Below are positions 12,475 to 30,913 of a stretch of 64,000 nt of DNA, one piece after another. This DNA is from a virus (Duplodnaviria > Caudoviricetes). The translations under genes and the position numbers were made by a program. How positions within the stretch are numbered: position 1 is the first letter of the stretch; the number at the start of each line of letters is the position of its first letter. Where the stretch lies: the IMG/VR virus record IMGVR_UViG_3300029305_002995, positions 47,158 through 111,157 of that record. The stretch is one strand, 5' to 3'. Under the pieces are notes generated by a model. The model was not told the origin of the DNA and ran no database searches. It saw only the letters and a program-made list of their open reading frames with translations.

Positions 12475-12660
12475 AAAAATTAGGGAGTCTTTCGACTCCC
12501 TTTTTTTATTTACAATTTTACAGATTATTTGTATTTTTGAAAACAGAAACTTTTTGCTTTTATTTTAATTAATATCAAAATAATAGTATTTTTGAAAATA
12601 GACATAATTTGTAAATTTCCCTCACCTGCTTGACAACGTGACTTTTAGTTGATATAATTA

Positions 12661-12793
12661 AAATACAAAGACAGCATTTAATTCCTTTTGATTTGTGCTA
12701 ATGTTGTTTGTTGTTGTTATTTTCTTCAAATTAAAAGCTATTTCTTTTCCTGTTGTCTTTGTATTTGGCGGTGCTTACGGCATCGCCTTTTTT
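12661..12793 (+). ncRNA. Putative antisense sRNA complementary to early-gene leaders and RBS
   Basis: Own promoter (12630-12658), no ORF, 15-bp closing stem (12661-12675/12752-12766), U/G-rich loop, terminator 12767-12793. Confidence 0.7.
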
Positions 12794-13222
12794 ATTACAA
12801 TGTTTTACAAGCCGTCTAAAAGCCTTTATAAAGCGTTTTAATACACGTATAGTAACTTAATCAATAAATAATACAAAATAGATTTTAGACATATTACAGA
12901 AGCGGAAAAATGATTTTAGACTATATGATATATTCAAATATGATAATTAGAATAAAATCCAACTTCAATCAGATTAAAACAAGATAGCAGCGTTTTTGAA
13001 AAAGCAAAGAATTTGTATTTTAACAAAAACAAAAAACTTGAATTTTTGAAAACACTATTTTATTGCAAATAAGATTAGATAATTAGATGATAAGCAAAGA
13101 AATGAATTTTAATTTATTTGATAAAACTACTTGACATATTGCATTTAATATGCTATAATGTAGATGGTAGATAAGCTACTAACAACAAACAAAACATAAA
13201 AGCACAAAAGGAGAAATGAATT

Positions 13223-26451: not shown

Positions 26452-26532
26452 ACAAGAAAATAACTCCAAAAATTAATTTGAAAAATTTCAAAAAAAGGTG
26501 TTGACAACATCAAAACGATGTGATATACTAAG

Positions 26533-26740
26533 GACAGTAAATCGAACAGATTTACTTCACAACTTTATTTCAGATAATAAGGTTATGAGTTCGGCATTAT
26601 TAACTCCTTTCGTATATTGTGTCAGTTTAATGGCAGTTGTAAAACAGGTAGTAAGTTTTAAATAATGGCAGGTTTAAAACACGATAAGTTAAACTGATAC
26701 AATAAACAATTATTAAGAAAATAAAGTTGTAATCTGTCTA
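26533..26740 (+). ncRNA. Rod-like structured ncRNA at the head of the tRNA operon
   Basis: Promoter 26501-26529; nested stems ACAACTTTATTT/AAATAAAGTTGT and ATTGTGTCAGTTTAA/TTAAACTGATACAAT. Confidence 0.55.
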
Positions 26741-26744
26741 ATAT

Positions 26745-26830
26745 GGTGGAGTGGTGGAATAGGCAGACACCACGGACTTAAAATCCGTTGCTTCAAAGGC
26801 GTGAGGGTTCAAATCCCTTCTCCACCACCA
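26745..26830 (+). tRNA. tRNA-Leu(TAA)
   Basis: Cloverleaf; ACGGA-CTTAAAA-TCCGT; long variable arm; CCA. Confidence 0.95.
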
Positions 26831-26950
26831 TAAGCGATAATCAAAAATGGCATGGTGAATAGTTTCGCTTTGTTGTTCAAACAATTATCTTATAGAAAAA
26901 TAAGACTGCGAATAAAAATGTGGCTCAACAGGTTATCGCTTATATTATAT

Positions 26951-27038
26951 GGGGAAATGGCTGAGTGGTTGAAAGCAGTTGCCTACTAAGCAACCAAGTG
27001 TAACAGCTTCGGGGGTTCGAATCCCTCTTTCCCCGCCA
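26951..27038 (+). tRNA. tRNA-Ser(ACT)
   Basis: GTTGC-CTACTAA-GCAAC; long variable arm; G73; CCA. Confidence 0.9.
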
Positions 27039-27187
27039 ACTATCAGATTAAATAATGTGGTCTGATGCGTGAAATGGTTTTTTGTTTGTTGTGCGACTTT
27101 GAAATCTCCTTTTCAAAAAATAATCTTCATAGGTGTTACCTGTTGATATAATGGGTTGGATGAATAAAGACGCCCTCCTTTTTAAAT

Positions 27188-27264
27188 GTGCCTTTAGCTC
27201 AGTTGGTCAGAGCGGCAAACTCATAATTTGCGGGTCTACAGTTCGAACCTGTAAAGGCGCACCA
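27188..27264 (+). tRNA. tRNA(CAT), elongator Met or Ile2
   Basis: GCAAA-CTCATAA-TTTGC; CCA. Confidence 0.9.
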
Positions 27265-27391
27265 TTGGAATATTAAATTCCAACTTTTTTCAAAGTGTTT
27301 TTTCTTCTAAAAAACATTTTAGTCTCCTAATCTTCTTTATTTTTTTATCCTATCTATTTTTTGCTTGTATTTAATAGTGCAAGCAAAATAT

Positions 27392-27465
27392 GTTCCGTTA
27401 GTTTAATGGTAAAAACAACTGCTTATCAATCAGTAGTGATGTTGGTTCGAGTCCAATGCGGAATA
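27392..27465 (+). tRNA. Degenerate tRNA-like element, anticodon ATC
   Basis: D and T arms present; mismatch in anticodon stem; no encoded CCA. Confidence 0.55.
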
Positions 27466-27865
27466 ATATCTTAAAGATAAGATGATACACAAAATCGTTT
27501 AGACTAACGAGGTTAGCTTGGTTAATAAGATTCTGACGAGAATTTGTTCCCAAGAAGTTTATCTTTAACTGCAAGATAAACAAGTCTGGAAGATTCATTA
27601 AAAGGACGTTTGGTTTATGCGTGTAGGTGTACAACTACAATAAACTATTTTCGGGCTTACGGAAAATTAAAATGACAGAGCCATTAGCATACAATGATTG
27701 CGAAAAGAACGCTGGTTTAGCAAGAAAACCACAGTATGTATCTTGCATTGATGATAATTTTGGGTGTGACACGATAAGTGTTTAGCAAGATTCAGAGCCT
27801 TGCTGATAATGGGAGTGTCAAAGTATCTGGACAGTGGAAGTAAAGATGCTAAGAGACAATAATAT
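27466..27865 (+). ncRNA. ~400-nt ORF-free structured RNA candidate
   Basis: Multiple hairpins between two tRNA-like elements. Confidence 0.4.
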
Positions 27866-27945
27866 GAGTAGATATGTAAGTGGTTGACATACAATCCTTT
27901 TATTTCGTTAAGCGGATTGCGTAGGTTCGAATCCTACTCTACTCG
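27866..27945 (+). ncRNA. tRNA-like RNA with expanded anticodon loop
   Basis: GAGTAGA/TCTACTC acceptor; GTAGG-TTCGAAT-CCTAC T arm; AATCC-16 nt-GGATT. Confidence 0.6.
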
Positions 27946-28156
27946 GTCGAATATAGATAGTCAGAGTGTACATAATGGCTATTTTGCAAGCGGAAAATTT
28001 TCAAAAAGACAATAAAATAGTTGTTTTATGTGATTTTTTGCAGTTTACGATTTTGCCCAAATTCACTTAGCAGTATCTATTATTGCTATTTCAAAATTAG
28101 TAATCTAAAAACGTTTGCAAACAGTGTCCCTGTTACTGCTACTACAGGGTGTACAA

Positions 28157-28240
28157 GGGGATATGTCGGAATTGGCAGACGAGGTAGACTCAAAATCTAT
28201 TGCTTTATGCGTGTGGGTTCAAGTCCCACTATCCCCACCA
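28157..28240 (+). tRNA. tRNA-Leu(CAA)
   Basis: GTAGA-CTCAAAA-TCTAT; CCA. Confidence 0.95.
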
Positions 28241-28404
28241 ATACGATAGGCTTACCAATTAGTCACCTCTCTTCTTTTTATGTTTTGTTGTGTTTTTTAT
28301 GGGTTTTGGCGTTATTGGTTTTTTGTTTTTCATTTTTCAGATTAATCTCCTTTTAAATATAATTTCTGCTTGTTTGATATATTTAATTGATAAGTCTATC
28401 GTAT
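28241..28404 (+). ncRNA. Stem-closed U-rich spacer RNA with two anti-SD motifs
   Basis: 14-bp stem 28241-28254/28391-28404; CACCTC and CTCCTTT in the loop. Confidence 0.55.
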
Positions 28405-28413
28405 TTATTATAT

Positions 28414-28490
28414 GCGGTATTAATGTTCAATGGTTAGCATATCAGCCTTCCAAGCTGAGAGTGAGGGTTCGAGTCCCTTATACCGCTCCA
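28414..28490 (+). tRNA. tRNA-Gly(TCC)
   Basis: TCAGC-CTTCCAA-GCTGA; CCA. Confidence 0.95.
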
Positions 28491-28775
28491 GATTCAATTT
28501 AGTTGAATTAACACGATGGTTATATCTTTAATCATGCGTAGTGTACTCGCAAGGGTACTGAGCCTGTCGAATCAGCAGGAGAAAAATTGGTTCATTATGC
28601 GCCCATTTAGTAAAACAACTGTGTGTTGTGTGATTGTTTTACTAAAATTAGCAAAAAGGTTAAGGGTTTTCCTTTTTGCAATCTTCGTTATAATAATTAC
28701 TGTTCCTTAAAAGTAATAACGTTATTATAAATGGATTAAGAAAACCCACTCCGTTTAAGGTGGTGAAATAAAAAA

Positions 28776-28966
28776 ATGGAACATAAGCATTTAGCTAAAG
28801 TAAGACCAATCGGAAAATTTTTGGTGTATGCGGTGGTTTAGGTGAATATTTTAATATCGACCCAACATGGATTAGATTAGGTTGGTGTGCTAGTGTGGTT
28901 CTGTGTGGTGTTGGTATTGTTGCTTATCTTGTAGCTGCATTGGTAATGCCAGAATGTGATAAATAA
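28776..28966 (+). pseudogene. pspC: PspC-domain protein with a 1-nt frameshift
   Basis: Adding one A at GCTAAAG gives MEHKHLAKSKTNRKIFGVCGGLGEYFNIDPTWIRL...LVMPECDK. Confidence 0.75.
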
Positions 28967-28990
28967 ATAGTGCAAGGTGGTAAGGTTATA

Positions 28991-29110
28991 ATGTTTAGTA
29001 AAGAACTTGTTGTAATGATGTTGGAAAGTCGTGCAGAAAAACTTTCTAAGAATCCAGACAATAATAAATTGCTTGCAAAAGTAAAACGTAGAATTAAAAA
29101 ATTAAAATAA
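28991..29110 (+). CDS. 39-aa basic peptide
   Basis: MFSKELVVMMLESRAEKL...KKLK; abuts the tRNA. Confidence 0.45.
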   Translation: MFSKELVVMMLESRAEKLSKNPDNNKLLAKVKRRIKKLK

Positions 29111-29194
29111 GTCGATATGCTGGAATTGGCAGACAAAACAGATTTAGAATCTGTTGCTTTATGCGTAAGGGTTCGAGTCCCTTTATCGACACCA
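29111..29194 (+). tRNA. tRNA-Leu(TAG)
   Basis: ACAGA-TTTAGAA-TCTGT; CCA. Confidence 0.93.
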
Positions 29195-29388
29195 TAATGT
29201 TGTCTTAATATATGCAAATAACATTAATATTAAAAAACAAAAGTCGTATCTTGTTCGGAAATAAAAATGTCAAATGCACACTTTTCTTTGTTCTATTAAG
29301 GCAATGTTAGGGTGGTTGTGGGGACTCCATCAGCACATAAATAAGTCCCTAAACAGAACATTTTATTATTTTAAGGAGGTAGATTCCG

Positions 29389-30525
29389 ATGGTGAAGAAA
29401 ATTATTTCTTCTATGGTAGCAATTGCAATGATGCTTTCTATGAGTATTTCTGCTTTTGCTACCGATACTGTTGTATTCGGTGGCAATTCTAAAGTTGTAA
29501 ACGATACTCCAGTATCTACAATTACTTTTGAAGATGTATACATCTTCGATAAAGAAATGAACGTAAAAACCAATGCCATTGTAAAAGGTGAAGCATACGA
29601 AAATCTTGTTGCAGGAGATATTCTGATGTTCCCTATGAATGGCGTACAGGCTGTCAATGGAGAATACAAAGTAGATAAGGATTGGAAAATTAAAGTTACC
29701 AATTCTCGCTTTGTAGAAAATGCAGAGTTCTTCTATGACGAAAAAAATGTTGTTCCAGATGCTACTGGTGACGTTTCTGGTTCTTATGTAAAAATTACCT
29801 TGTCTGATAATTTTAACTCTTATGAAGCTGACTATGCTACTTTTGAGTTCTTTGTTTATGACAAAAATGAACCAGAACAGAAAACCGCTATTCAGTCTGT
29901 AAAATATAAATTTGCAGATTACGCAGAAGTAGAACTGGACGAGTTCGATGTAAATACTATTGTTTCTTTGGAAAAAAATACTGTTTACACTCTTGCTGAT
30001 GGCGTAAAATCCGCTAATGTTATGTTTGATATGGATGGTTTGAATATTGTTGTTCGTATGTATGAAGATGAAGAATATCTTGTAAAAGAACATTCTGTTG
30101 AATACAATAAAGAACTGTCTATCAAATATGACACTGATATTGAAGTGATTACCATTGATAGCAACATTGATATTTATGATATTCTATTTGAATCTAAAAA
30201 AGACGACAAAGCTATTTATGTAGTAGATGGTGATGAACTTGTTCTTGTAGAAACAGAATACGTTGAAAAATACGAATTGAATAAAGGCGAATATACCTTG
30301 ATTAAAGGTTATGTTGTAGAGAATGTAACTGATGCAGAATGGGTGGTTCTGGATGCAGATGTAGAAATTGCAGTTAAAGAACCAGAGGTAGAAAAACCAG
30401 TTGAAACTCCTTCTGTTGATGTGAAACCAAATCCAGAAACTGGTGCTGGCAATGTAGTTAGTGTAGCTACTGCTATGGCTGTTATGTCTGTAATTGGTTT
30501 AGGCGTACTATCCTCTAAAAGATAG
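29389..30525 (+). CDS. Secreted, sortase-anchored (NPETG) surface protein
   Basis: N-terminal signal peptide ending AFA; C-terminal NPETG, hydrophobic helix and KR tail. Confidence 0.8.
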   Translation: MVKKIISSMVAIAMMLSMSISAFATDTVVFGGNSKVVNDTPVSTITFEDVYIFDKEMNVKTNAIVKGEAYENLVAGDILMFPMNGVQAVNGEYKVDKDWKIKVTNSRFVENAEFFYDEKNVVPDATGDVSGSYVKITLSDNFNSYEADYATFEFFVYDKNEPEQKTAIQSVKYKFADYAEVELDEFDVNTIVSLEKNTVYTLADGVKSANVMFDMDGLNIVVRMYEDEEYLVKEHSVEYNKELSIKYDTDIEVITIDSNIDIYDILFESKKDDKAIYVVDGDELVLVETEYVEKYELNKGEYTLIKGYVVENVTDAEWVVLDADVEIAVKEPEVEKPVETPSVDVKPNPETGAGNVVSVATAMAVMSVIGLGVLSSKR

Positions 30526-30585
30526 TTCAATAAAAGTCAGCTTAGATTATTTGTGTGGAGCATTTATCTAAGCTGACGCAAATAT

Positions 30586-30659
30586 TGAGCATTAGTGTAA
30601 TGGTAGCACAACACACTTTGACTGTGTTCGAGGTGGTTCAAGTCCACCATGCTCAGCCA
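30586..30659 (+). tRNA. tRNA-Gln(TTG)
   Basis: ACACA-CTTTGAC-TGTGT; U1-A72; CCA. Confidence 0.93.
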
Positions 30660-30913
30660 ATAACATCTATCTTTCAGTAGCGACACCTCTTTCAGAAACA
30701 GGCTGAAAGCTGTACCTATTCGGGAAGGTGGCAGGAAGAAACCAGCTTTTTAATTTGATAGCAGTCTCCTATTTAATTGCTTTTGTGTTTTCAGTTGTGG
30801 TTATGTGGATATTGAGGTAGTGACACATAACCACAACGCACACACGATAATAGGACTTTAAATAAATAGGTTAGCGTGGTTGTTAAACCGCGCATTTCCC
30901 ATATATAAATTTT

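What the first reader, a model, noticed from the sequence alone, without database searches (positions are those of the whole stretch)
26533..30790. tRNA array whose spacers look like anti-Shine-Dalgarno small RNAs
Seen: spacers between tRNAs repeatedly carry anti-SD motifs in U-rich single-stranded context, sometimes preceded by CAT (anti-AUG). Examples: CATTATTAACTCCTTTC (~26595), TCTCCTTTT (~27105), CCCTCCTT (~27173), CATTTTAGTCTCCT (~27315), CACCTCTC (28264), CTCCTTTT (28347), CACCTC (~30684), TCTCCT (~30764). Several spacers are closed by long stems abutting tRNA ends (26831-26842 with ~26931-26942; 28241-28254 with 28391-28404), the same design as the 12.7-kb sRNA. Established: RNase P and 3' tRNA processing excise spacers. 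Inference: the tRNAs and degenerate tRNA-like elements may act as processing punctuation that releases a set of translation-blocking guide RNAs against phage or host mRNAs.
Basis: partly seen in the sequence, partly recalled or inferred. Interest (0 to 1): 0.8.

Follow-up and report, generated by a model that had tools for sequence, protein, structure and literature searches.

The report
Phage tRNA cluster with antisense-like spacers
A gut phage of clostridial bacteria carries a patchwork cluster of nine tRNA genes whose spacers really do contain mirror images of ribosome-binding sites and long closing stems, but these look like lineage-specific insertions and flipped pieces of the phage's own gene leaders rather than a conserved set of translation-blocking RNAs.

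Summary
The motifs are enriched: 17 anti-SD 5-mers against 4.4±2.2 in shuffles, and CTCCT occurs 6 times against 0.8 expected from other intergenic DNA.

The sites are not independent. S2 and S6 share a ~55-nt block, and S3 and S9 share a 9-mer. Five of the eight sites lie in three spacers (S2, S3, S6) whose whole composition is that of a reverse-complemented phage leader plus ribosome-binding site.

Related phages pack the same tRNAs 3-6 nt apart. Their longer spacers show neither anti-SD enrichment nor inverted composition. The second tRNA array of this same genome has no CTCC. One metagenomic contig lacks spacer S6 altogether. Only S6 (5' half) and S0 pair with phage leaders better than shuffles, far less than the phage's separate 12.7-kb candidate sRNA.

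Best reading: an ordinary, mosaic phage tRNA cluster with stem-closed insertions, decayed tRNAs and inserted genes. The guide-RNA idea remains possible for one or two spacers but is untested; no RNA data exist.

This scan flagged similar spacer readings in other phages, with mixed follow-up verdicts.

The parts
26501..26529 (+). Strong sigma-70-type promoter of the tRNA cluster (TTGACA-17-TATACT with a TG before the -10 box)
   Evidence: 11 of 12 matches
26533..26744 (+). S0, the operon leader. The outer stem 26559-26570/26719-26730 encloses an inner inverted repeat, 26612-26630/26689-26707. The anti-SD CTCCTTTC lies at 26604-26611, with CAT 6 nt upstream.
   Evidence: inner unit z = -5.1. There is a 12-nt perfect complement to the leader of gene 14616.
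26745..26830 (+). tRNA-Leu(UAA)
26831..26950 (+). S1, a stem-closed spacer. The 12-bp stem starts right after the CCA and ends 8 nt (TATTATAT) before the next tRNA. It has no anti-SD motif.
   Evidence: z = -4.8
26951..27038 (+). tRNA-Ser with the unusual anticodon ACU
27039..27187 (+). S2. It shares a paralogous block with S6 (TGGTTTTTTGTTT at 27075-27087, then 15 nt, then AATCTCCTTTT at 27103-27113). A possible extended -10 promoter, TGATATAAT, lies at 27144-27152. CCCTCCTT at 27173-27180 lies in the tRNA-Met 5' leader.
   Evidence: fold z = -1.3; AT skew -0.16. The promoter is read from the sequence (inference).
27188..27264 (+). tRNA-Met
27265..27390 (+). S3. It has three hairpins, the first terminator-like with a U run. 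A 38-nt unpaired C/U-rich linker carries AGUCUCCUA (27321-27329). Its composition is that of an inverted leader.
   Evidence: z = -7.2
27391..27466 (+). tRNA-Asp-like with the unusual anticodon AUC
27467..27865 (+). S4, 399 nt with no anti-SD motif. It contains a decayed tRNA-Leu-like remnant; 27610-27628 is 89% identical to the variable/T-arm part of tRNA-Leu(CAA).
   Evidence: D6, D8
27866..27945 (+). Aberrant tRNA. Rfam scores it as a tRNA at 40.5 bits. ARAGORN calls it only at a lowered threshold, with anticodon UUA.
27946..28156 (+). S5 spacer, no anti-SD motif
28157..28240 (+). tRNA-Leu(CAA)
28241..28413 (+). S6, an insertion bounded by inverted repeats (arms 28240-28261 and 28384-28405). 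It carries two flipped leader/RBS modules, CACCTCTC plus a G/U tract at 28264-28300 and AATCTCCTTTT at 28344-28354. It is absent from one metagenomic contig.
   Evidence: (joint 28240->28410). Relatives have 5-6 nt at this position.
28414..28490 (+). tRNA-Gly(UCC)
28491..28775 (+). S7, a hairpin-rich spacer that includes 13-bp perfect arms at 28606-28618/28634-28646. It contains only weak TCCTT words.
28776..28966 (+). PspC-domain gene in two frames. An ATG frame runs 28776-28841. The PspC frame is open at 28799-28966.
   Evidence: PF04024, E = 8e-22. The sequence is identical in all contigs.
28991..29110 (+). 39-aa gene, with a likely counterpart next to the tRNAs in related phages
29111..29194 (+). 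tRNA-Leu(UAG)
29389..30525 (+). 378-aa secreted protein with a C-terminal NPETG sortase-type anchor. It is inserted between tRNA-Leu(UAG) and tRNA-Gln, which are 5 nt apart in relatives.
   Evidence: The signal peptide and anchor are read from the sequence.
30586..30659 (+). tRNA-Gln(UUG)
30660..30913 (+). S9, the trailer and 5' region of the next gene. It has CACCTC at 30684, AGTCTCCTA at 30763-30771 and a 14-bp perfect hairpin at 30794-30837.

Best explanation
The stretch is an ordinary but unusually mosaic phage tRNA gene cluster in a 111-kb temperate-type phage of Clostridia/Lachnospiraceae-like hosts.

It holds nine plus-strand tRNAs. They are driven by a strong promoter at 26501-26529 and probably by weaker internal ones. 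They supply decoding capacity for the AT-rich phage genes.

Compared with the compact ancestral layout (tRNAs 3-6 nt apart, each preceded by ATAT), this lineage has been stuffed with non-conserved material:
- stem-closed insertions (S1, S6, and a unit in the leader S0);
- decayed tRNA copies;
- inserted genes (a PspC-like gene, a 39-aa gene, a 378-aa surface-anchored protein);
- in S2, S3 and S6, pieces of DNA that are reverse-complemented copies of the phage's typical A/C-rich leader plus ribosome-binding site.

The anti-SD words and the upstream CAT are the flipped SD and ATG of those pieces.

The terminal stems make each insert fold on itself. This would leave the neighbouring pre-tRNAs free to fold and be cut by RNase P and the 3' processing enzymes. 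No trans-acting role is required.

Shown: the anatomy, the enrichment, the inverted composition, the lack of conservation, and the presence/absence polymorphism of S6. Inferred: the origin by inversion or insertion, and the insulating role of the stems.
For: - Compact layout in relatives. L009 and L011 place Leu(CAA)-Gly(UCC) and Leu(UAG)-Gln 5-6 nt apart (aatat/tatat). Here S6 (173 nt) and a 378-aa gene sit at those positions.
- S6 polymorphism. One contig in run X6 joins 28240 directly to 28410, giving CCA-ATAT-tRNA-Gly. It then matches 806 nt downstream with 3 mismatches.
- Inverted composition. AT skew is -0.16, -0.27 and -0.44 for S2, S3 and S6. Other sense intergenic segments give +0.09±0.11. 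The Markov log-likelihood ratio for 'reverse-complemented leader' is +0.025, +0.073 and +0.096 per nt. The 29 other intergenic segments give -0.033±0.035, maximum +0.016.
- Whole-leader inversion. The other most enriched words (ATCTT, TGGTT, GTTGT, TTTGTT, GTTGTG) are also mirror images of leader words, not only of the SD.
- The reverse complement of S6 aligns with early-gene leaders, with 14 nt exact to the leader of gene 13223.
- S2 and S6 share a ~55-nt block with identical 15-nt spacing.
- The spacers have no homologues in 86 related loci.
- Relatives' spacers show no anti-SD excess and no inverted composition.
- The left tRNA array of the same genome has no CTCC.
- No Rfam family other than tRNA matches.
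- Complementarity to start regions is no better than in shuffles for most spacers.
Against: - The enrichment of anti-SD words is significant against shuffles and against other intergenic DNA.
- The motifs sit mostly in predicted single-stranded stretches between very stable hairpins (S3 z = -7.2). This is the typical build of a base-pairing sRNA.
- S0 and the 5' half of S6 pair with leaders better than their shuffles (z about -6 and -3).
- The same phage has a separate candidate anti-leader sRNA of like composition at 12.7 kb. I re-measured it at -25.6 against -18.0±1.2 kcal/mol. Antisense control of leaders may therefore be part of this phage's biology.
- S1 and S6 have identical geometry: the stem starts at the CCA and ends 8 nt before the next tRNA. 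This could reflect selection for a processing design rather than a shared insertion mechanism.
- An origin by inversion does not exclude later use as an antisense RNA.
- The S6-less form rests on a single low-depth contig.
Confidence: 0.55

Rival explanations
1. tRNA-punctuated antisense RNAs. The cluster is transcribed as long precursors. RNase P and the 3' processing enzymes free the spacers. The closing stems protect them from exonucleases. The unpaired CUCCU/CACCUC tracts, with the adjacent G/U-rich tract in S6, then pair with the SD and A/C-rich leaders of phage early mRNAs or with host mRNAs. This would damp translation and complement the separate 12.7-kb sRNA.
For: - Enrichment of anti-SD words.
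- Motifs are mostly unpaired and flanked by stable hairpins.
- S2, S3 and S6 are mirror images of the leader class as a whole.
- S6 28255-28305 pairs with early leaders at -21.4 against -17.8±1.1 kcal/mol. S0 gives -16.6 against -13.0±0.6, with a 12-nt perfect match to the SD region of gene 14616.
- Precedents: tRNA spacer-derived regulators in E. coli (Lalaouna et al. 2015, as cited in PMC9514646), and C-rich sRNAs that pair with SD sequences in Firmicutes (PMC8216469).
Against: - No conservation. Relatives lack these spacers, and their own spacers show no anti-SD excess or inverted composition.
- The second array in the same genome has none.
- S6 is dispensable in at least one variant.
- S2, S3 and the 3' half of S6 pair no better than shuffles. 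Maximal complementarity to 108 start regions is within shuffle range for 9 of 10 spacers.
- Some motifs lie in a predicted promoter spacer (28336-28363) or in a short pre-tRNA 5' leader (27173-27180).
- A 5-8-nt anti-SD alone would need very high abundance to compete with ribosomes.
Confidence: 0.22
2. Cis-acting processing or insulating structures only. The closing stems and hairpins are selected because they keep long spacers from misfolding with the tRNAs. They may also offer double-strand cleavage sites (RNase III type) that separate the tRNAs. Under this reading the anti-SD words are incidental.
For: - S1 and S6 have identical geometry, 0 nt after the CCA and 8 nt before the next tRNA.
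- A third closed unit lies in the leader.
- Fold z-scores are strongly negative for S0, S1, S3 and S6.
- S1 is stem-closed yet has no anti-SD motif, so stems and motifs are separable.
Against: - Relatives manage with 3-6-nt spacers and need no such stems.
- The 12-bp stem of S1 is short for a classical RNase III site (general knowledge).
- This reading does not explain the word enrichment or the inverted composition.
Confidence: 0.13
3. Minus-strand expression. The motifs are working ribosome-binding sites of tiny minus-strand ORFs, or remnants of minus-strand genes that are still transcribed antisense to the tRNA cluster.
For: The minus strand shows SD and ATG at proper spacing twice. GAAAGGAG-6-ATG is at 26611-26595 and AGGAG-6-ATG at 27328-27315. 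A further AAGGAG-13-ATG lies in S6. A weak minus-strand promoter match (9 of 12) lies at 27429-27400, upstream of the S3 ORF.
Against: - The ORFs have 4, 14 and 24 codons of low-complexity sequence.
- Five of the eight motifs have no start codon at all.
- No convincing minus-strand promoters were found for S2, S6 or S9.
- Full SD-plus-ATG mirrors are not significantly enriched: 2 in 2.1 kb against 0.25 per kb, P about 0.1.
Confidence: 0.07

Closest known systems
Phage tRNA gene clusters, e.g. the phage T4 tRNA region with its small stable RNAs species 1 and 2 (general knowledge), and the compact arrays of related gut phages L009/L011 found here
   Same: Tandem same-strand tRNAs sit behind strong promoters. 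They are interleaved with small genes and mobile elements: HNH genes in the relatives, inserted genes here. Non-tRNA RNA segments are co-transcribed.
   Different: Spacers here are much longer than in the closest available relatives. Three are stem-closed, and three have inverted-leader composition. No stable non-tRNA product has been shown.
tRNA spacer-derived regulatory RNAs of E. coli (3'ETS of the glyW-cysT-leuZ operon and internal spacers; Lalaouna et al. 2015, as cited in PMC9514646)
   Same: The by-product of tRNA precursor processing is proposed to act in trans by base pairing.
   Different: The E. coli spacers sponge specific sRNAs (RyhB, RybB), are released by RNase E, and are conserved in Enterobacteriaceae. 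Here there is no known partner, no conservation and no expression data. The proposed targets are SD regions.
C-rich-region sRNAs of Firmicutes (RoxS, FsrA of B. subtilis; RsaE-type of staphylococci; PMC8216469)
   Same: [quoted passage not shown] The host clade is SD-dependent Firmicutes.
   Different: Those are free-standing genes with their own promoter and terminator. They have conserved structure and validated targets. Their tracts are C-runs in hairpin loops, not CUCCU words in tRNA spacers.
tRNA-linked small RNAs of murine gammaherpesvirus 68 (TMERs) and engineered tRNA-gRNA arrays (general knowledge)
   Same: tRNA or tRNA-like units are used as cutting signals that free neighbouring small RNAs from one precursor.
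   Different: These are eukaryotic or engineered systems with demonstrated processing. Here the logic is only inferred, and the tRNAs are mostly ordinary, probably functional tRNAs.
Miniature inverted-repeat insertions (MITE-like elements)
   Same: S1 and S6 are short (120 and 173 nt), non-coding and bounded by inverted repeats. They are inserted at equivalent positions. S6 is present or absent among variants.
   Different: Only two weakly related copies exist. There are no further copies in the genome or in 86 related loci. No clear target-site duplication or partner transposase was found.

Membership tests
Phage tRNA gene cluster | Several same-strand tRNA genes that score as tRNAs, behind a promoter, in a phage genome | tested here: met
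   Nine Rfam tRNA hits of 40-62 bits on the + strand. ARAGORN finds 8. Promoter at 26501-26529. Phage context: a 111-kb contig with a PcfJ-like gene, recombinases and structural genes.
tRNA spacer-derived trans-acting RNA (3'ETS-leuZ type) | The spacer accumulates as a discrete stable RNA after tRNA processing | not testable with these tools
   No RNA run holding this sequence is listed.
tRNA spacer-derived trans-acting RNA (3'ETS-leuZ type) | Specific, extended complementarity to a partner RNA beyond chance | tested here: inconclusive
   S0 and the 5' half of S6 exceed their shuffles. S2, S3 and the 3' half of S6 do not. The maximum score against 108 start regions is within shuffle range for 9 of 10 spacers.
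tRNA spacer-derived trans-acting RNA (3'ETS-leuZ type) | Conservation of the spacer and its pairing tract among relatives | tested here: not met
   No homologues in 86 related loci. Relatives' spacers show no anti-SD excess or inverted composition. S6 is absent from one variant contig.
C-rich / anti-SD sRNAs of Firmicutes (RoxS/FsrA/RsaE type) | Free-standing gene with its own promoter and intrinsic terminator | tested here: not met
   The motifs lie inside tRNA spacers. Only a weak terminator-like hairpin follows tRNA-Met. The terminator scan found none in the spacers.
C-rich / anti-SD sRNAs of Firmicutes (RoxS/FsrA/RsaE type) | Match to a curated RNA family | tested here: not met
   No Rfam hit other than tRNA, at gathering score or at E up to 5.
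MITE-like inverted-repeat insertion | Terminal inverted repeats and presence/absence polymorphism | tested here: met
   S6 arms are 22 nt and 91% complementary. The joint 28240->28410 occurs in one contig. The ancestral compact junction is seen in relatives.
MITE-like inverted-repeat insertion | Multiple dispersed copies and a target-site duplication | tested here: not met
   Only S1 and S6 share end similarity (D18). No other copies exist in the genome or in relatives. The flanks are AT/TA-rich, so a duplication cannot be read.

The most novel reading that the evidence does not exclude
One to three of the spacers are released from the tRNA precursor and persist as stem-protected antisense RNAs. 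The candidates are S6's 5' half at 28255-28305, S0 around 26595-26615, and perhaps the S3 linker. They would pair with the SD and A/C-rich leaders of the phage's own early genes. They would act together with the free-standing 12.7-kb anti-leader sRNA to shut early translation down. This would be a recently evolved, lineage-specific 'tRNA-punctuated' antisense module, built by flipping leader cassettes into the tRNA operon.
Probability: 0.17. Interest if true: 0.65.

Novelty: new member of a known kind. Interest (0 to 1): 0.3.

Why it matters
If the ordinary reading is right, the value is cautionary. Mirror images of ribosome-binding sites in phage tRNA spacers can arise simply from flipped leader fragments and insertions. 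Such motifs, flagged repeatedly in this scan, then need conservation or expression evidence before being called regulators. The locus also documents how fast a phage tRNA array can be remodelled, with spacers growing from 5 nt to 173 nt or to a whole gene.

If the minority reading is right, it would show a phage recruiting tRNA processing to make antisense RNAs against its own early leaders. It would also capture the evolutionary origin of such RNAs from inverted leader cassettes.

Tried and rejected
- Expression: no RNA holder is listed for this stretch, so expression could not be examined.
- DNA search of cultured phages: only tRNA bodies matched.
- Single-protein locus searches with three flanking or embedded proteins, in viral and genome collections: nothing found.
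- Pattern search for the odd tRNA-Ser(ACU) anticodon arm in viral contigs: nothing.
- Metagenome scan with the 3' 24-mer of tRNA-Leu(CAA): 95 contigs, none sharing more than 200 nt in total with the window. Many are long contigs; I read them as bacterial chromosomes, which would make this tRNA end identical to cellular tRNA-Leu genes. No phage variants were found this way.
- All other contigs of this phage reachable through exact proteins are 99.9-100% identical, so there is no micro-variation to analyse.
- An octamer, TATCTCCT, recurs after tRNA-Leu(UAA) in four relatives. I considered it as a conserved motif and set it aside. The four fall into two closely related pairs, and one shared 8-mer between two such spacers is expected by chance about 0.4 times.
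- Rfam search of a relative's array: only tRNAs.
- RNAduplex of whole spacers against all start regions timed out. It was replaced by an ungapped score and by module-level duplex energies.
- Minus-strand micro-ORFs as the general explanation: rejected. Only 3 of 8 motifs have a start codon, and the ORFs have 4-24 codons.
- An integron attC-like reading of the inverted repeats: rejected by eye, because the core sites are absent.
- Other joints (26506->30591, 26830->27192 and others) have short sides at 80% likeness. They were not used.

Full report
CONTEXT

The window is the right arm of a single 111,157-bp contig with 31.7% G+C. Genes run on the minus strand up to about 6.7 kb of the window and on the plus strand from there on. 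Proteins near the finding include a PcfJ-like protein. That protein has more than a thousand homologues on 90-160-kb viral contigs. It also occurs in prophages in Lacrimispora, Lachnospiraceae and Clostridium genomes and on a C. difficile plasmid. The start regions carry strong AGGAG-type SD sequences. A gene inside the array encodes a secreted protein with a C-terminal NPETG sortase-type anchor (read from the sequence). The host is therefore an SD-using Firmicute.

WHAT IS IN THE STRETCH

Rfam and ARAGORN find nine plus-strand tRNAs:
- Leu(UAA) at 26745
- Ser(ACU) at 26951
- Met at 27188
- Asp-like(AUC) at 27391
- an aberrant tRNA at 27866-27945
- Leu(CAA) at 28157
- Gly(UCC) at 28414
- Leu(UAG) at 29111
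- Gln(UUG) at 30586

Three genes sit between the tRNAs:
- a PspC-domain gene split over two frames, 28776-28966 (Pfam E = 8e-22);
- a 39-aa gene, 28991-29110;
- the 378-aa anchored protein, 29389-30525.

I call the ten non-coding gaps S0 to S9. Decayed tRNA pieces occur in S4, where 27610-27628 is 89% identical to part of tRNA-Leu. S0 has a 21-nt stretch that is 81% like the 5' end of the Asp-like tRNA.

CHECKING THE OBSERVATION

All eight motifs are at the stated places. Both stems are real. S1 closes with 12 bp (26831-26842 with 26931-26942). S6 closes with 22-nt arms that are 91% complementary (28240-28261 with 28384-28405). The operon leader has a third closed unit, 26559-26570 with 26719-26730. 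The fold z-scores are:

| Spacer | z-score |
|---|---|
| S1 | -4.8 |
| S3 | -7.2 |
| S0 inner unit | -5.1 |
| S6 | -2.8 |
| S2 | -1.3 |

The motifs are enriched:
- 17 anti-SD 5-mers against 4.4±2.2 in dinucleotide shuffles.
- About three times the density of other sense-strand intergenic DNA.
- CTCCT 6 against 0.79 expected.
- Four of the genome's six sense-strand intergenic TCTCCT lie here.

Most motifs are predicted to be unpaired.

WHY THE SITES ARE NOT EIGHT INDEPENDENT EVENTS

S2 and S6 share TGGTTTTTTGTTT, then 15 nt, then AATCTCCTTTT, within a ~55-nt alignable block. S3 and S9 share AGTCTCCTA. Five of the eight sites lie in S2, S3 and S6.

Those three spacers differ from all other intergenic DNA in overall composition.
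- AT skew is -0.16, -0.27 and -0.44, against +0.09±0.11.
- A third-order Markov model was trained on the 60 nt upstream of all genes. S6, S3 and S2 score +0.096, +0.073 and +0.025 per nt as 'reverse-complemented leader'. The 29 other intergenic segments give -0.033±0.035 and never exceed +0.016.
- The other most enriched words in the spacers (ATCTT, TGGTT, GTTGT, TTTGTT, GTTGTG) are mirror images of the A/C-rich leader words of this phage's early genes, not of the SD alone.
- The reverse complement of S6 aligns with early-gene leaders, 14 nt exact to the leader of gene 13223 and about 70-80% identical by eye over 35-40 nt.

So the anti-SD words, and the CAT upstream of some of them, are the SD and ATG of flipped leader/RBS modules.

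COMPARATIVE EVIDENCE

All other contigs of this phage that I could reach are 99.9-100% identical. The next relatives are about 55% identical in PcfJ.

Two of them, L009 and L011, carry homologous arrays directly upstream of PcfJ. Most of their tRNAs are 3-6 nt apart, each preceded by ATAT. Leu(CAA)-Gly(UCC) and Leu(UAG)-Gln are 5-6 nt apart. In the window S6 and the 378-aa gene occupy exactly those junctions. They are therefore insertions in this lineage.

One contig in run X6 joins 28240 to 28410, giving CCA-ATAT-tRNA-Gly. It then follows the window for 806 nt with 3 mismatches. A form without S6 therefore exists, though on one low-depth contig only.

None of the ten spacers has a homologue in 86 related loci. 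The 33 longer spacers of ten related arrays hold 17 anti-SD against 31 SD-like clusters in 6.6 kb. They show no inverted-leader composition (mean -0.030 against -0.017 for other intergenic DNA, P = 0.73). The second tRNA array of this same genome (genome 44891-45524, minus strand) has no CTCC in its spacers.

TARGET TESTS

Best ungapped complementarity to 108 phage start regions is within the range of dinucleotide shuffles for nine of ten spacers. Duplex energies against the 60-nt leaders of early genes are shown below.

| RNA | Mean energy (kcal/mol) | Shuffles |
|---|---|---|
| 12.7-kb candidate sRNA core (positive control) | -25.6 | -18.0±1.2 |
| S6 5' half (28255-28305) | -21.4 | -17.8±1.1 |
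| S0 | -16.6 | -13.0±0.6 |

The S0 value includes a 12-nt perfect match to the SD region of gene 14616. S2, S3 and the 3' half of S6 equal their shuffles.

Full minus-strand start sites (SD, 4-10 nt, ATG) occur twice in 2.1 kb against 0.25 per kb elsewhere (P about 0.1). The ORFs behind them have 4 and 14 codons. A third, with 13-nt spacing, has 24 codons. No convincing minus-strand promoters were found. Translated micro-ORFs are therefore a poor general explanation.

INTERPRETATION

The most economical account is a mosaic, partly decayed tRNA cluster. Its spacers are lineage-specific insertions, and three contain flipped leader/RBS fragments. The terminal stems make the inserts self-contained and leave the neighbouring pre-tRNAs accessible to RNase P and the 3' processing enzymes (inference).

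When transcribed, S2, S3 and S6 are antisense to the leader class. S0 and S6 show some excess pairing. The phage seems to use an anti-leader sRNA elsewhere. Precedents exist for regulatory tRNA spacers (Lalaouna et al. 2015, as cited in PMC9514646) and for sRNAs that pair with the SD in Firmicutes (PMC8216469). But the lack of conservation, the dispensability of S6 and the absence of specific targets argue against an evolved set of guide RNAs.

I give about 0.55 to the ordinary reading. I give 0.22 to trans-acting spacer RNAs, 0.13 to purely cis-acting processing or insulating structures, and 0.07 to minus-strand expression.

RELATION TO EARLIER NOTES OF THIS SCAN

Similar 'anti-SD / anti-start-codon spacer' readings were made on other phage genomes, with mixed follow-up verdicts. 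I treated them as leads only.

Noticed in passing
window 28776-28966: The PspC-domain gene is split over two frames. An ATG frame with a good SD stops at 28839-28841. The PspC frame is open only from 28799 and has no usual start codon. The switch needs a -1 shift, possibly on the A-run at 28814-28817. The sequence is identical in every metagenomic contig, so it is either a programmed frameshift or a fixed pseudogene.
   Followed up: partly
window 26951-27038 and 27391-27466: Two tRNAs have A at the wobble position, Ser(ACU) and Asp-like(AUC). This is unusual for bacteria. The Asp-like one lacks an encoded CCA.
   Followed up: no
window 27866-27945: An aberrant tRNA scores 40.5 bits with Rfam. 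ARAGORN calls it only at a lowered threshold, with anticodon UUA (ochre-suppressor-like) or with a 7-nt insert in the anticodon loop. Relatives L016-L019 carry a tRNA that ARAGORN calls with anticodon UUA at its default threshold.
   Followed up: partly
L009:8090-8800: In a related phage a tRNA-Arg(UCU)-like gene appears to be interrupted in the anticodon loop by about 0.6 kb encoding an HNH endonuclease. In L011 the same tRNA is intact, with a free-standing HNH gene next to it.
   Followed up: no
window 29389-30525: A 378-aa protein with a signal peptide and a C-terminal NPETG-type sortase anchor has no Pfam match and no relatives in viral or genome collections. It is inserted between two tRNAs that are adjacent in related phages. 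It is a candidate lysogenic-conversion surface protein.
   Followed up: partly
window 12631-12800: A free-standing candidate sRNA has its own promoter (TTGACA...TATAAT) and terminator. Its core pairs with early-gene leaders far better than shuffles do (-25.6 against -18.0±1.2 kcal/mol).
   Followed up: partly
window 26506 to 30591 (run X7) and 26507 to 27916 (run X9): Contig joints suggest variants in which large parts of the array are skipped or replaced. The aligned sides are short (21-30 nt) at 80% likeness, so they may be artefacts.
   Followed up: no
L095-L174 (metagenome contigs): The 3' 24 nt of the phage tRNA-Leu(CAA) are identical in 95 rumen and gut metagenome contigs, many of them long contigs that look chromosomal rather than phage. 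This is consistent with recent capture of a host tRNA gene.
   Followed up: partly
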